From: a virus
Lineage: Duplodnaviria; Heunggongvirae; Uroviricota; Caudoviricetes
Length of the DNA stretch: 16,232 bases
Strand: one strand, 5' to 3'
Virus record (IMG/VR): IMGVR_UViG_2802429241_000006
Location: 1-16,232 of that record
Shown here: positions 4,239 to 13,101 of the stretch, piece by piece
Layout: each line of letters begins with the position of its first letter
How positions within the stretch are numbered: the stretch's first letter is position 1
Program-made: the position numbers and the translations under genes
Notes under the pieces: model-generated
The model's input: only the letters and a program-made list of their open reading frames with translations
What the model was told of the DNA's origin: nothing
Databases searched by the model: none

Positions 4239-4804
4239 AATTATCTCCATTTTTACAAATGAACTTTGTTGATGCGGTGCCTGGTGCCTCCAGGTGACGT
4301 TAACCAGTTAACAATTAACGCCGGATACAGAGAATCCACCCATAACACTGTTTTTGGTTTTAACTGTTCCGCGTGCGCTTAGCCGCATTCACCGCATCAC
4401 AAAATTCACTTTAAAAAGGGCGGCAGAGCAGTCACGGAGTAAAACTGATACCGCCAAACGCCACCAGAAAATTGATAACAGAGGGCGTTGTAGCGGGGGT
4501 GTCACTTAAGCGTATGGTCAACCTGACAACCCGGTGTCCTCAACGGGGAAGGAATAACCCCGCCATACTTACCGCCGCGCCATTTCGCGGAGTGCCACAA
4601 CCGGAAGCGCACGGTCGACGAAAATTTAACGACAGGCTATCTATGAACCAGCAACCTCGCCGTGCGCTTTCGTGTTATGGTCTGACTTTTCAGGGAAATA
4701 TCCTTTCAGTAAACTGTCAGTGCCGGATGCTCACCCGTGTCCGGCGCACGCACTCCACCTCACCCGTGGAGAACTCCTTAATCACCAACCCTCAGGAGGG
4801 TGAA

Positions 4805-9429: not shown

Positions 9430-12228
9430 ATGTGGGGAAGTGAAAACAAACAAAATCTGGACGTACTGGATCCTGTGCAGTTGGCGCGTATCAAAGCGGT
9501 ACACCGGGGGTTCCTTTACCAGCATCTTTACGCTGTAGGCTGCTTACTTTTGGCGCAGAGGGCTGCTATGGACTCAGTAACTGTCGAGCTTGATGAGGAT
9601 ATTGAGCTGAAATCCAAACAGGAATGTCTCTACATTCAGGTTAAAACCCGTTCAAAACCTATTATGCCCAACGATGTGTCAGGGGCTCTTGAGCGATTTG
9701 TAAAGCTCAGAAATGAGCATACTTCGGCAAACCGCGAAGGGGTGGCTTCTTTTGTGATTATTGTAAACCAGGCGCCTGGACCGCTGCTTCAGAAGATGAT
9801 TGACGATAAAAAGCTTCCTTCTGATGTTCTCATTGTCTGGCCCCAGTCGACAGCTGGACGTCACCCGGCACTTCCGCCCGCATGGAGTACTCTGGCTGAT
9901 GCGGCCACATGGTGTATCGCAGAAGCAGAAAAGCTGAAATTTTCACTATTGTCCCCAGAATCCTTGATTTGGAAGTTAGCAGGGTTGGTTCAGCTTGCCG
10001 CCACCGGAGGCGATACCAATGGGCAACATACGTTTTTCACGGAAGAACTTACTGAACTATTTGAACAGTTGATCGTTCAGCTACAGGACTTTCCTGCGCC
10101 ACCAGCACTGTACCGTCCACAAAACGAAGAACCTTCTCTCACATCTGGTGAGCGGATCCGTATCCTTTGTGGGCTCTCAGGTGCAGGCAAGACAGCTTGG
10201 GCCGCACAGGCCGCATTACACTCCACTGCACTTTGTGCTTATTACGACACCGGTGATCTTCCCGGTCCAGCTCTGGCCAGTACGCTGGTGCGCGAGATGG
10301 TTGCTAGATTTACAGCCCGTGACCAAAACGGTTTGCGCAGGATTTTGCTCCCCGGTGCCAGTGGTTTTGAGGCTCTTAGGAGTTTTGATACCTACCTGAA
10401 AGAGCACGGTACCACCTTGGTGCTGGTTCTGGATAACGCCCATCGTGTGCCTGCGGAAAATCTACGGGATGTTCTGAATGCAACTACACATATTCGTTTT
10501 GTGCTGTTGTGCCAGCCTCACGAAAACGTTCGCGAACTGGAGGTCATGACGGGGCTACAGCGCGAGAGCCTGCAGGGATGGAATCTCGATACGGTAGCTG
10601 TCGTTGTAAACGATATCGGAGGATTTGCCACCGCCATGGGATACGAGCAGCTACGGGCTTACACTGGTGGTCTTCCCCTGTATGTAGAGAGCGCCGCAAA
10701 AATCGCCGTTTCTGATTATGAGCGTAGTGTCGATGCTCTGTGTGCTGAACTCCAGCAACAAACCCATACTGCGGAAACCGCCCAAGAAATTATTCTGTCA
10801 CGTGTATTTCAGGGATTTGAATCACTACTTCAGAGCGCGCTGGCATTGTTCAGTCTCTCTGACGTAGGGCTGAGTCGTGAAGAGATTTCTACGCTCCTAA
10901 TCAATTCGCTGAACATTTCACCAAGCAGTGCGGCTTCTTTAATTAGGAAAATGCGCGCTACTGGCACTATTGAAATTTATGGAAACCATACCCTGAAGGT
11001 ACATGATGCTGTCAGGGGGCTAGGACTGCAACATCTGGAACTGATGGATCAGGGGATATCGAACAAAGCGCTACTAGCGCTGAAAGACCTTTTAGTTGAA
11101 AGTCTTCATAATACCCGCAATACAAAACGGTTATCGTTGTTGACTCAACTTTATATTAAGCTCAATGATGTCACGACGTTGATCGAACTCTCAGGCCAAG
11201 AAATGTTTTATGAGATGGGCGTGACGGTCGACATTCTTTCAAGCCTGGAGCGTGCTGCAACATCGGACTTATTGGGACCTGTTCATAAATTCTGGGCATT
11301 GGATGGTCTTGTTTTCGTTGAGCTTAAAGACGGAATATCCGACCAGATTGCTCAGAGGTTAAACATCATGGGAGCTTTACTTGCGGAGCACAAGTTCGGT
11401 TATCAAGAAGAGATGGCCTATGCAATGAAACGAATGTTATTTTCGGCAGAAAGCAATGATGCACGAGCAGTTCAAAAGCTGGCACAGGAAGTCCGCCCCC
11501 AACTCCCAGATGAAGAACATAAACGCATCTTTGACTACAACCATGCTATTGCACTCTGGAGATTAAAAAAACTCAAGGATGCTGAAACATTAAGCTGTAA
11601 TGTTATACAAGGGTACTATTCTTTATTTGGTATCACACCTGCTGATGTCATAGGAAAAAACGCCGACGCATTATGGAAAACTATTAATCATTCCGAAAAT
11701 ATGCAGGAACACTTTAAACATATGGCTGATGCACTGGAGTTGCTGGCCAGAATTCGTGATGCGCAGGGAAAAATGTCACCATTACTGCGTATTCATTCGA
11801 TGAAGTTCTACAATCTGGCCATGGCCCCGGAATCCATGGTCAGGGTGGGCCAAGATCTGGCGGATGAGTTTGTTGCCATAAAGGATTACGACGGTGCCAA
11901 GGAAGTCATGGAGCAACATGTCCTGCCGGTTGTCAATGAGGCAGGTCTAGTACATCGACTGATTCAGGTTCGAAGCCAGTACGCAGTCATATTGGCACTA
12001 TCGGGTCAGCATAAAGCAGCTGATGTCGAAATGCAGCGCCTTGCTCCCTATATCGAAGGCCTCACAGGTGTACAGCGTCAAGAAATCCAAAATCAATCAA
12101 ATTACATCGTACAGCTTGCCCATAAAGCAGCAAAGACTAAATTAACTGAAGTTTTTGGTGCGGTCGGCCGGAATGAACAATGCCCCTGTGGCTCGGGAAT
12201 AAAGTACAAAAAATGTCACGGTGCCTGA
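9430..12228 (+). CDS. Candidate anti-phage STAND-like NTPase, 932 aa: N-terminal PD-(D/E)xK-like nuclease region, central P-loop NTPase, helical C-terminal region, terminal SEC-C-type zinc motif
   Basis: Unambiguous long ORF with AAGGA RBS. Walker A CGLSGAGKT at about aa 248-256 and Walker B-like TTLVLVLDNAH about 80 aa later. N-terminus has a GF-x-YQ motif and a D...QxK pattern (VELDEDIELKS...LYIQVKT) resembling Cap4/Mrr-type nucleases. Final residues NEQCPCGSGIKYKKCHGA match the SEC-C metal-binding motif. About 570 aa of predicted helical sequence follow the NTPase. Flanked by non-coding DNA on both sides. Confidence 0.6.
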   Translation: MWGSENKQNLDVLDPVQLARIKAVHRGFLYQHLYAVGCLLLAQRAAMDSVTVELDEDIELKSKQECLYIQVKTRSKPIMPNDVSGALERFVKLRNEHTSANREGVASFVIIVNQAPGPLLQKMIDDKKLPSDVLIVWPQSTAGRHPALPPAWSTLADAATWCIAEAEKLKFSLLSPESLIWKLAGLVQLAATGGDTNGQHTFFTEELTELFEQLIVQLQDFPAPPALYRPQNEEPSLTSGERIRILCGLSGAGKTAWAAQAALHSTALCAYYDTGDLPGPALASTLVREMVARFTARDQNGLRRILLPGASGFEALRSFDTYLKEHGTTLVLVLDNAHRVPAENLRDVLNATTHIRFVLLCQPHENVRELEVMTGLQRESLQGWNLDTVAVVVNDIGGFATAMGYEQLRAYTGGLPLYVESAAKIAVSDYERSVDALCAELQQQTHTAETAQEIILSRVFQGFESLLQSALALFSLSDVGLSREEISTLLINSLNISPSSAASLIRKMRATGTIEIYGNHTLKVHDAVRGLGLQHLELMDQGISNKALLALKDLLVESLHNTRNTKRLSLLTQLYIKLNDVTTLIELSGQEMFYEMGVTVDILSSLERAATSDLLGPVHKFWALDGLVFVELKDGISDQIAQRLNIMGALLAEHKFGYQEEMAYAMKRMLFSAESNDARAVQKLAQEVRPQLPDEEHKRIFDYNHAIALWRLKKLKDAETLSCNVIQGYYSLFGITPADVIGKNADALWKTINHSENMQEHFKHMADALELLARIRDAQGKMSPLLRIHSMKFYNLAMAPESMVRVGQDLADEFVAIKDYDGAKEVMEQHVLPVVNEAGLVHRLIQVRSQYAVILALSGQHKAADVEMQRLAPYIEGLTGVQRQEIQNQSNYIVQLAHKAAKTKLTEVFGAVGRNEQCPCGSGIKYKKCHGA

Positions 12229-12505
12229 GTCTTTGTACGACCATGCAGGCCTTATTGTCTTGCTATTGCTCTTATGGTTCGCCTTTCTGATTGATTTCAT
12301 ATTGGCGAGGTAACGGGAGTTAAGTAGAATGGCTGCGGGTGCTTGAGGCTATCTGTCTCAGGCATGAACACCAAAGGCAGATAGAGAAAAGCCCCAGTTA
12401 ACATTACGCGTCCTGCAAGACGCTTAACATTAATCTGAGGCTCAATCTATGAACGGCAAATCTAGGTTAGCCTCTTACGAGCCGAAAGGCAAGGAGAAGC
12501 AGGCT

Positions 12506-12661
12506 ATGAAGCAGCAAAAGGCGATGTTAATCGCCCTGATCGTCATCTGTTTAACCGTCATAGTGACGGCACTGGTAACGAGGAAAGACCTCTGCGAGGT
12601 ACGAATCCGAACCGGCCAGACGGAGGTCGCTGTCTTCACAGCTTACGAACCTGAGGAGTAA
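12506..12661 (+). CDS. hokD: Hok/Gef-family membrane toxin, 51 aa (HokD/RelF-like)
   Basis: Protein MKQQKAMLIALIVICLTVIVTALVTRKDLCEVRIRTGQTEVAVFTAYEPEE matches my recollection of E. coli HokD (RelF). AAGGAG RBS lies upstream of the ATG at 12506. The track ORF's 19-codon in-frame extension from 12449 is unlikely to be translated. Confidence 0.85.
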   Translation: MKQQKAMLIALIVICLTVIVTALVTRKDLCEVRIRTGQTEVAVFTAYEPEE

Positions 12662-12730
12662 GAGACCAGGCGAGGGAGAAATCCCTCGCCACCTCTGATG
12701 AGTCAGGCATCCTCAACGCACCCGCACTTA

Positions 12731-12756
12731 ACCCGCTTCGGCGGGTTTTGTTTTTT
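12731..12756 (+). terminator. Rho-independent terminator downstream of hok
   Basis: Stem ACCCGC / GCGGGT with TTCG tetraloop (12731..12746) followed by TTTGTTTTTT. Confidence 0.7.
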
Positions 12757-12828
12757 CCTGGCATTCTGGTTTACAATTCGCACGTCAGCCTGAACACCTG
12801 ACACCTGCTGCGCCAGCAGAGAAAACAG

Positions 12829-13101
12829 ATGGCGCACAAAACCAAATTTCACAATTCTGATACCGACCTTGCCATCCGGCATGGGCGGCGTTCACACGCA
12901 TTTAAAACCGACTGGTACCAACACCCACCATGTACTGAAGAACAGGCCGAATGGCTAATTCATAACTACCGCAGACGCGGATACGAGATTAAGAAAGCCC
13001 TCAGCCTCGATTATCGTCACTGGATAATCTATGTTAGGCTCCCTTATTCCGAACGCCCACCGCGCCCATCCCGCACATACCAGCAACGGATCTGGAGGTA
13101 A
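12829..13101 (+). CDS. Small prophage protein, 90 aa, Rem-like by position
   Basis: ORF between hokD-like and ydfU-like genes, where K-12 Qin carries rem. Its stop is 1 nt before the next gene's GTG start. The Rem sequence itself is not recalled, so the name is positional only. Confidence 0.45.
   Translation: MAHKTKFHNSDTDLAIRHGRRSHAFKTDWYQHPPCTEEQAEWLIHNYRRRGYEIKKALSLDYRHWIIYVRLPYSERPPRPSRTYQQRIWR

What the first reader, a model, noticed from the sequence alone, without database searches (positions are those of the whole stretch)
12449..12760. HokD-like toxin as a stand-alone unit with 3' hairpin and terminator; antisense regulator not identified
The Hok ORF is intact. A perfect 9-bp stem with GAAA loop (12669..12690) follows the stop, and a terminator lies at 12731..12756. 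No relBE is upstream and I could not confidently identify a Sok-like antisense gene. An in-frame 19-codon upstream extension from 12449 exists, unlike the out-of-frame mok arrangement. Whether this hok is silenced, antisense-controlled or co-transcribed with the NTPase gene is open.
Basis: partly seen in the sequence, partly recalled or inferred. Interest (0 to 1): 0.5.

Follow-up and report, generated by a model that had tools for sequence, protein, structure and literature searches.

The report
Complete hok/mok/sok toxin-antitoxin cassette in prophage

Summary
There is an intact 51-aa Hok ORF (12506-12661) identical to K-12 HokD. There is an in-frame 19-codon extension from 12449, a perfect 9-bp/GAAA hairpin (12669-12690) and a terminator (12730-12757). 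No relBE lies upstream.

Rfam's hok/sok model RF01794 matches 12337-12511 end to end at 107.7 bits (threshold 59). K-12 hokD, whose leader was replaced by relBE, gives no hit.

All canonical parts can be placed:
- hok promoter (TTGGCG-17-TAGAAT)
- tac (12337-12348) pairing with fbi (12711-12723)
- ucb, mok SD, mok ORF and dcb
- a 78-nt Sok gene on the minus strand (12457 to 12380)

The Sok -35 and -10 are identical to those of sokW from phage Sp5, whose -10 was inactivated by mutation in a published study. The in-frame extension is mok, arranged exactly as in K-12 mokC and Sp5 mokW.

The cassette is 92.8% identical to the characterised hokW-sokW locus. Its leader occurs in 78% of complete E. 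coli genomes, where it is left unannotated. Verdict: already known, low interest. Expression and toxicity remain untested here.

The parts
12302..12330 (+). hok/mok mRNA promoter: -35 TTGGCG (12302-12307), 17-nt spacer, -10 TAGAAT (12325-12330)
   Evidence: This was the only promoter-like site found in 12150-12900. The -10 is conserved as TAGAAT/TAGGAT/TACAAT/TATAAT in six loci from different contexts. It ends 7 nt before position 1 of the Rfam leader match.
12337..12755 (+). Predicted full-length hok mRNA (about 419 nt)
   Evidence: The 5' end is taken from RF01794 model position 1 and the 3' end from the terminator. The MFE fold is -171.8 kcal/mol, z = -8.15, and closes the two ends on each other. 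The ends are inferred, not mapped.
12337..12348 (+). tac (translational activator element), GGGUGCUUGAGG
   Evidence: It pairs with fbi in the full-length fold. It pairs with ucb in the 3'-truncated fold. In the nascent 30-nt transcript it sits in an 11-bp metastable hairpin, -16.9 kcal/mol.
12389..12395 (+). ucb / anti-SD (AAGCCCC)
   Evidence: It pairs with the mok SD region in the full-length fold and with tac in the truncated fold. This matches the RF01794 consensus outer stem.
12437..12440 (+). mok Shine-Dalgarno GAGG, 8 nt before the mok ATG
   Evidence: Read from the sequence. It is sequestered by ucb in the full-length fold. It pairs with dcb (12469-12474) in the truncated fold. R1 uses the same GAGG motif (PMC9841398).
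12449..12661 (+). mok ORF (70 codons), in frame with hok and sharing its stop
   Evidence: ORF list. The architecture is the same as annotated K-12 mokC and Sp5 MokW. It is 87% identical to MokW and 70% to MokC.
12380..12457 (-). Predicted Sok antisense RNA (78 nt): variable single-stranded 5' tail, long hairpin, GGGGCUUUUCUCUAUC 3' tail. It covers the mok SD and start codon.
   Evidence: The ends were transferred from annotated K-12 sokC, which covers mRNA positions 44-102 with its 5' end 8 nt inside mokC. The fold is -33 kcal/mol, z = -5.8. It aligns with sokW, sokC, sokB and sokE. The published sokW northern probe YO-592 matches 12429-12458.
12464..12492 (-). sok promoter: -35 TTGCCT (12492-12487), 17-nt spacer, -10 TAACCT (12469-12464), with predicted +1 at G 12457
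   Evidence: Both hexamers are identical to Sp5 sokW. The published promoter-less mutant changes exactly this heptamer, TAGGTTA to CCGGCTC on the + strand (primers YO-421/422), and loses antitoxin activity. The site is below the threshold of the consensus scan.
12492..12496 (+). hok Shine-Dalgarno AGGAG
   Evidence: Read from the sequence. Homology to K-12 hokD begins here.
12506..12661 (+). hok toxin ORF, 51 aa
   Evidence: Pfam HOK_GEF, E 3e-23. It is 100% identical to K-12 HokD.
12669..12690 (+). GC-rich 9-bp stem with GAAA loop, predicted to be the 3'-terminal protective stem-loop of the processed (truncated) hok mRNA
   Evidence: Fold result. The stem is kept in homologues with compensatory changes (helix 14). 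In R1, mutations in the equivalent last stem-loop abolish toxicity through exoribonuclease degradation (PMC9841398). The role here is inferred by analogy.
12711..12723 (+). fbi (fold-back inhibitory element), CCUCAACGCACCC
   Evidence: It forms 12 bp plus one bulge with tac, -21.5 kcal/mol. In K-12 hokB the pairs at tac positions 7 and 12 are both changed on both sides: U-A to C-G and G-C to A-U. The bulged base varies freely, C or U.
12730..12757 (+). Intrinsic terminator of the hok mRNA
   Evidence: Terminator scan. It is conserved in K-12 hokD and PPompW.

Best explanation
The region 12302-12757 is a complete, canonical hok/mok/sok type I toxin-antitoxin cassette of the hokD/hokW lineage, carried in the early region of a lambdoid prophage.

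Inferred mechanism, following the R1 paradigm:
1. A constitutive promoter makes a hok mRNA of about 419 nt.
2. While the transcript is nascent, tac is held in a metastable 5' hairpin.
3. In the finished transcript, tac pairs with fbi near the 3' end, and ucb sequesters the mok Shine-Dalgarno. The mRNA is then neither translated nor bound by Sok.
4. Slow 3' trimming back towards the 12669-12690 stem-loop removes fbi.
5. tac then pairs with ucb, which exposes the mok SD/start region in a target hairpin.
6. While the cassette is present and transcribed, the unstable 78-nt Sok RNA, made from the opposite strand (12457 to 12380), pairs across the mok SD and AUG. This blocks mok translation, and with it the coupled hok translation, and marks the duplex for RNase III.
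7. If Sok synthesis stops, the stable processed mRNA is translated and Hok damages the inner membrane.

Shown here: presence, integrity, conservation and predicted folding of every element. Inferred: transcription, processing, toxicity and the biological role. Candidate roles are prophage retention, help with lysis on induction as reported for hokW-sokW, or phage exclusion.
For: - RF01794 matches 12337-12511 over the full model at 107.7 bits, E 4e-24. This is in the range of K-12 hokC (118), hokB (110) and Sp5 hokW (113.5). The leader-less K-12 hokD region gives no hit.
- The toxin matches HOK_GEF and is identical to HokD.
- The full-length fold pairs the two ends, z = -8.15. The truncated fold gives the tac/ucb stem and the SD/dcb target hairpin. 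The nascent 30-nt transcript gives the metastable hairpin.
- The tac/fbi duplex is -21.5 kcal/mol, and hokB carries two double compensatory changes in it.
- Across 7 loci, 91.4% of cells are paired against about 40% in slid controls. 18 pairs changed on both sides, against 5.6 +/- 2.1 in shuffles.
- The Sok candidate folds as a tail plus terminator hairpin, z = -5.8, and aligns with the annotated sokC, sokB and sokE.
- The sok -35 and -10 are identical to sokW, whose -10 mutation abolishes antitoxin activity.
- The cassette is 92.8% identical to Sp5 hokW-sokW over 12317-12733.
- The mechanism vocabulary and the role of the 3' stem-loop come from PMC9841398.
Against: - There are no expression data for this copy.
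- The sok promoter is a poor consensus match (7 of 12) and was missed by the scan.
- The RNA ends are transferred by homology, not mapped.
- Chromosomal hok/sok loci tested earlier did not mediate post-segregational killing (summary in bioRxiv 10.1101/2025.08.07.668861). An intact sequence therefore does not guarantee activity.
- The structure used was derived from the window itself, and only 7 sequences were used, so that count leans towards the structure.
Confidence: 0.9

Rival explanations
1. The cassette is intact in sequence but functionally quiet. Like the chromosomal hok loci tested by Pedersen and Gerdes, it would be transcribed and Sok-controlled yet never release enough Hok to kill. 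On this reading it is a drifting passenger of the prophage.
For: [quoted passage not shown] The sok promoter is weak by consensus.
Against: Every regulatory element is intact and under visible structural constraint. The 93%-identical hokW-sokW is a working toxin-antitoxin pair with a phenotype on prophage induction. R1 hok in single chromosomal copy is toxic without Sok (PMC9841398).
Confidence: 0.2
2. One reading: an orphan HokD-type toxin with no antisense regulator. It would be either silenced or expressed by read-through from the upstream 932-aa NTPase gene, as K-12 hokD is expressed from the relBE operon.
For: No terminator was detected between the stop of the upstream gene (12228) and hok, so some read-through is possible. 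K-12 hokD does lack its own leader.
Against: The full hok leader, including the complement of Sok, is present. The cassette has its own promoter at the right distance. The sok promoter and RNA are conserved with validated homologues. Homology to cassettes in unrelated contexts starts at the hok promoter and not further upstream.
Confidence: 0.03

Closest known systems
hokW-mokW-sokW of Stx2 prophage Sp5 / VT2-Sakai (E. coli O157:H7), experimentally characterised (PMC8621323)
   Same: The two are 92.8% identical in nucleotides over 12317-12733. tac, fbi, and the sok -35 and -10 are identical. Both have the 70-codon in-frame mok. Both have the roughly 20-nt apical extension of the Sok hairpin. 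Both reside in a lambdoid prophage.
   Different: mok codons 2-5, which are also the Sok 5' recognition tail, differ: GCCGUUCAUAG against GUUCAGCAUGG. The Hok C-terminus is TAYEPEE against VDYESEK. The sequence after fbi differs, and Sp5 lacks this terminator. The position within the prophage differs.
hokD (relF) of the relBE-hokD operon, Qin prophage, E. coli K-12
   Same: The Hok protein is identical. The SD, ORF, 3' stem-loop, fbi and terminator are the same. The downstream neighbours are the same (rem-like ORF, DUF968/ydfU, Q antiterminator), and DicF is nearby.
   Different: In K-12, homology stops at the hok SD (about 12492). The promoter, tac, ucb, mok and sok are all replaced by relB-relE, and there is no RF01794 hit. 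The K-12-type junction is in 1165 of 5426 genomes, whereas the leader is in 4254 of 5426.
hokC/mokC/sokC (gef) of E. coli K-12
   Same: The 19-codon in-frame mok shares the hok stop. Sok starts 8 nt inside mok and ends with GGGGCUUUUCUCUAU. The tac sequence is identical.
   Different: The Mok-Hok protein is 70% identical. The Sok is shorter, 59 nt. The K-12 copy has IS186 inserted in the 3' stem-loop, which removes fbi.
hok/mok/sok (parB) of plasmid R1, the paradigm
   Same: The element order and the refolding logic are the same: tac/fbi, ucb/SD, tac/ucb, SD/dcb and the 3' stem-loop. There are 19 mok codons upstream of hok, and the mok SD is GAGG (PMC9841398; folds).
   Different: R1 mok is out of frame with hok. 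The toxin is distant (HokW is 44% identical to R1 Hok). R1 is plasmid-borne with a proven plasmid-stabilisation role.

Membership tests
[quoted passage not shown] | Small hydrophobic Hok/Gef-family toxin ORF | tested here: met
   Pfam PF01848, E 3e-23, 81.6 bits against a cut-off of 22. It is 100% identical to HokD.
[quoted passage not shown] | Conserved structured 5' leader of the hok mRNA (Rfam RF01794, which also contains the complement of Sok) | tested here: met
   107.7 bits against a gathering score of 59, model positions 1-157 of 157. The negative control, K-12 hokD, gives no hit. The positive controls hokB, hokC, hokE and hokW score 84-118 bits.
[quoted passage not shown] | mok leader ORF with its own SD that starts upstream of hok and runs across the hok start | tested here: met
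   GAGG at 12437-12440, ATG at 12449, and 19 codons before the hok ATG. The layout matches the annotated mokC and MokW.
[quoted passage not shown] | cis-encoded antisense Sok gene with its own promoter and terminator, overlapping the mok translation start | tested here: met
   The sequence features are present: TTGCCT-17-TAACCT, a 78-nt tail plus hairpin plus U-rich end. The promoter is identical to the mutationally defined sokW promoter. Transcription itself cannot be tested with these tools.
[quoted passage not shown] | Long-range 5'-3' end pairing (tac/fbi) that locks the full-length mRNA | tested here: met
   It is part of the MFE fold. The duplex is -21.5 kcal/mol, with compensatory changes in hokB. 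The helix is 98.8% paired across 7 loci.
[quoted passage not shown] | Alternative fold after 3' trimming (tac/ucb stem, SD/dcb target hairpin) and a protective 3' stem-loop | tested here: met
   The fold of 12337-12700 gives both stems. The 3' stem-loop at 12669-12690 is stable and conserved. Processing itself was not tested.
[quoted passage not shown] | Hok toxicity neutralised by Sok RNA | not testable with these tools
   This has been shown only for homologues: hokW-sokW and R1.
relBE-hokD operon arrangement (K-12 Qin) | relB-relE directly upstream, hok without its own leader, mok or sok | tested here: not met
   The upstream gene is a 932-aa SEC-C protein. The alignment with K-12 breaks at about 12492. 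The leader is present here.

The most novel reading that the evidence does not exclude
The most novel reading not excluded has two parts. First, the divergent Sok 5' tail / mok codons 2-5 would define a specificity class orthogonal to sokW and the other resident Sok RNAs. That would let several hok cassettes coexist in one genome without cross-protection. Second, this copy would act together with the adjacent Cap4-nuclease/AAA/SEC-C gene as a prophage-borne defence or lysis-timing module, instead of as a plain addiction cassette.
Probability: 0.1. Interest if true: 0.35.

Novelty: already known. Interest (0 to 1): 0.1.

Why it matters
There is little new biology. The cassette belongs to one of the best-studied antisense-RNA systems, and a 93%-identical copy has been characterised experimentally.

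The practical value is for annotation. In RefSeq E. coli genomes only the hokD CDS is named. The leader, mok and sok, which are present in about 78% of complete genomes, carry no feature. These loci therefore look like orphan toxins to anyone reading the sequence or the annotation.

The window also shows the intact form of the cassette whose 5' half was replaced by relBE in K-12 Qin.

Tried and rejected
- The consensus promoter scan did not report the sok promoter. It was located instead by homology to sokW and sokC. The scan's silence was therefore not taken as absence.
- The terminator scan alone is no better than chance in this region, so conservation was used instead.
- PADLOC has no model that hits Hok.
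- NCBIfam Hok models hit below their curated cut-offs: 48.5 bits against 73. Pfam and direct identity to HokD were used instead.
- The RF01794 hit was not taken as the Sok RNA itself. In K-12 the model's hits lie on the hok strand, opposite to the annotated sokC, sokB and sokE. The hit therefore marks the hok leader, and Sok is its complement.
- Co-transcription with the upstream gene was rejected as the main route, because the cassette brings its own promoter in every context.
- An apparent tac-complementary stretch downstream of K-12 hokC (-17.9 kcal/mol) lies inside IS186 and was dismissed as chance.
- hokE could not be used for the tac/fbi comparison, because the fetched locus ended inside the gene.
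- The exact source organism was not determined. The best E. coli prophage matches are about 95% identical over 79% of the window.

Full report
**Observation**

- The ORF 12506-12661 encodes a 51-aa protein. It matches Pfam HOK_GEF (E 3e-23) and is 51/51 identical to K-12 HokD.
- An ATG at 12449 lies in frame 19 codons upstream, giving a 70-codon ORF.
- GGCGAGGGA-GAAA-TCCCTCGCC at 12669-12690 is a perfect 9-bp hairpin, about -20 kcal/mol, z = -5.4.
- A terminator-like hairpin with a T-run lies at 12730-12757.
- The upstream gene (9430-12228) is a 932-aa SEC-C/AAA/Cap4-nuclease protein, not relBE.

**The antisense regulator is there**

A scan of the window against Rfam gave a full-length match to RF01794 ('sok') at 12337-12511 on the + strand: 107.7 bits against a gathering score of 59, E 4e-24.

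Controls were run in the same way:

| Locus | RF01794 score (bits) |
|---|---|
| K-12 hokC | 118 |
| K-12 hokB | 110 |
| K-12 hokE | 84 |
| Sp5 hokW | 113.5 |
| K-12 relBE-hokD region | no hit |

One caveat matters. In K-12 the RF01794 hits lie on the hok strand, opposite to the annotated sokC, sokB and sokE genes. The model therefore describes the hok mRNA leader, and Sok is its complement.

I transferred the ends of annotated sokC to the window. sokC covers mRNA positions 44-102, and its 5' end lies 8 nt inside mokC. This gives a 78-nt Sok at 12457 to 12380 on the minus strand. It folds as a short single-stranded 5' tail, a long hairpin and a GGGGCUUUUCUCUAUC tail (-33 kcal/mol, z = -5.8). 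It aligns with sokW, sokC, sokB and sokE.

Its promoter is TTGCCT (12492-12487), a 17-nt spacer, then TAACCT (12469-12464). This is below the threshold of the consensus scan. It is, however, identical to the promoter in phage Sp5. In Sp5, Takada et al. destroyed exactly this heptamer (primers YO-421/422: TAGGTTA to CCGGCTC on the + strand) and lost antitoxin activity. A short clone that begins 17 nt upstream of the -35 restored it (PMC8621323).

**The in-frame extension is mok**

- K-12 mokC and hokC share their stop and differ by 57 nt, which is 19 codons.
- The mokA remnant also shares its stop with hokA.
- Sp5 carries an annotated 70-codon 'MokW' with the same layout, 87% identical to the window's ORF.
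- K-12 mokB is out of frame, as is R1 mok. R1 also has 19 mok codons before hok.

Both arrangements therefore occur in the family. The mok SD (GAGG, 12437-12440) lies 8 nt before the ATG.

**mRNA switch elements**

A sigma-70 promoter, TTGGCG-17-TAGAAT (12302-12330), ends 7 nt before position 1 of the leader match. Its -10 travels with the cassette in phage, P1-like/IncY plasmid and chromosomal contexts.

The folds reproduce the states described for R1 hok mRNA (PMC9841398):

- **Full-length transcript, 12337-12755** (z = -8.15). The first 12 nt, tac (GGGUGCUUGAGG), pair with CCUCAACGCACCC at 12711-12723 (fbi). The ucb element (AAGCCCC, 12389-12395) pairs with the mok SD region.
- **3'-trimmed transcript, 12337-12700.** tac pairs with ucb. 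The SD region (GAGGCU) pairs with AGCCUC at 12469-12474 (dcb) in a hairpin that carries the mok start.
- **Nascent transcript, first 30 nt.** It forms an 11-bp metastable hairpin that holds tac.

The tac/fbi duplex is -21.5 kcal/mol. In hokB it is kept through two double changes, U-A to C-G and G-C to A-U. The bulged base varies freely.

I projected the full-length fold onto seven loci. 91.4% of cells pair, against about 40% when partners are slid. 18 pairs change on both sides, against 5.6 +/- 2.1 in shuffles. The structure came from the window itself and the set is small, so this is supporting evidence and not decisive.

In R1 that stem-loop protects against 3' exonucleases.

**Relation to known loci**

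- **Sp5 hokW-sokW.** The cassette is 92.8% identical over 12317-12733 to this experimentally validated locus.
- **K-12 hokD.** Homology starts only at the hok SD (about 12492) and runs through the terminator. Everything upstream in K-12 is relE/relB.
- **Neighbourhood.** The surrounding genes are of the Qin type: DicF at 4418-4469, a cI-like repressor, then hok, a rem-like ORF, DUF968 and Q.
- **Distribution.** The leader alone (12337-12505) is found at 80% coverage or more in 4254 of 5426 complete E. coli genomes, with no annotated feature under it. The K-12 relE-hokD junction is in 1165 genomes. The whole 571-nt region is in 3366 genomes.

The window is therefore the common, complete form, and K-12 hokD is the truncated one.

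**What is shown and what is inferred**

Shown: every defining sequence and structure element of a hok/mok/sok cassette is present, intact and conserved.

Inferred by homology: the transcript ends, 3' processing, Sok instability, RNase III cleavage and toxicity.

The biological role is open. hokW-sokW assists lysis and phage release after induction. R1 hok/sok stabilises plasmids and hinders T4. Some chromosomal copies showed no post-segregational killing.

**Verdict**

This is a known system with a close, characterised homologue. Interest is low. The only practical point is that mok and sok go unannotated in this very widespread cassette.

Noticed in passing
window 9430-12228 (+): The 932-aa ORF directly upstream of hok combines an N-terminal Cap4-type nuclease domain, an AAA ATPase and a C-terminal SEC-C zinc motif. 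PADLOC gives only weak N-terminal LmuA/HamA hits. RefSeq calls it 'SEC-C metal-binding domain-containing protein'. It looks like an uncharacterised prophage-borne defence candidate.
   Followed up: partly
window 4418-4469 (-): A DicF sRNA gene scores 76.4 bits over the full model. It marks the window as a Qin/Kim-like lambdoid prophage early region.
   Followed up: no
L003 (K-12 hokC) and L012 (ST131 IncY plasmid); equivalent to window 12669-12690: An IS186/IS421 element is inserted at the same point inside the GC-rich post-stop hairpin (..GATCCC|ATAAGCGCTAACTTAAGGG..) in two different hok loci. In each case it cuts fbi off the mRNA. The hairpin appears to be a recurrent IS186 target.
   Followed up: partly
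window 12647-12656 (+): The Tyr47 codon of hok is UAC followed by G (GCUUACGAAC), a TadA-type UACG motif. A recent preprint states that hokC, hokD and hokE mRNAs undergo A-to-I editing that recodes this Tyr to the second Cys. I did not test whether the local fold resembles the tRNA-Arg anticodon arm.
   Followed up: no
window 12337-12505; RefSeq E. coli genomes: Rfam RF01794, named 'sok antitoxin', is modelled on the hok-sense strand. In RefSeq genomes the leader/mok/sok region of hokD-type cassettes carries no annotation at all.
   Followed up: yes
window 12452-12462 compared with L004 1636-1646: The least conserved stretch of the whole cassette among close homologues is mok codons 2-5, which is also the single-stranded 5' tail of Sok. 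This fits diversification of antisense specificity between co-resident copies. Up to 11 places per genome were seen.
   Followed up: partly
E. coli hits H1-H5: In five E. coli strains, four of them from chickens, the match to 12230-12800 is split into two pieces spanning 1236 bp. This implies an insertion of about 665 bp, annotated 'hypothetical protein', within or next to the cassette.
   Followed up: no
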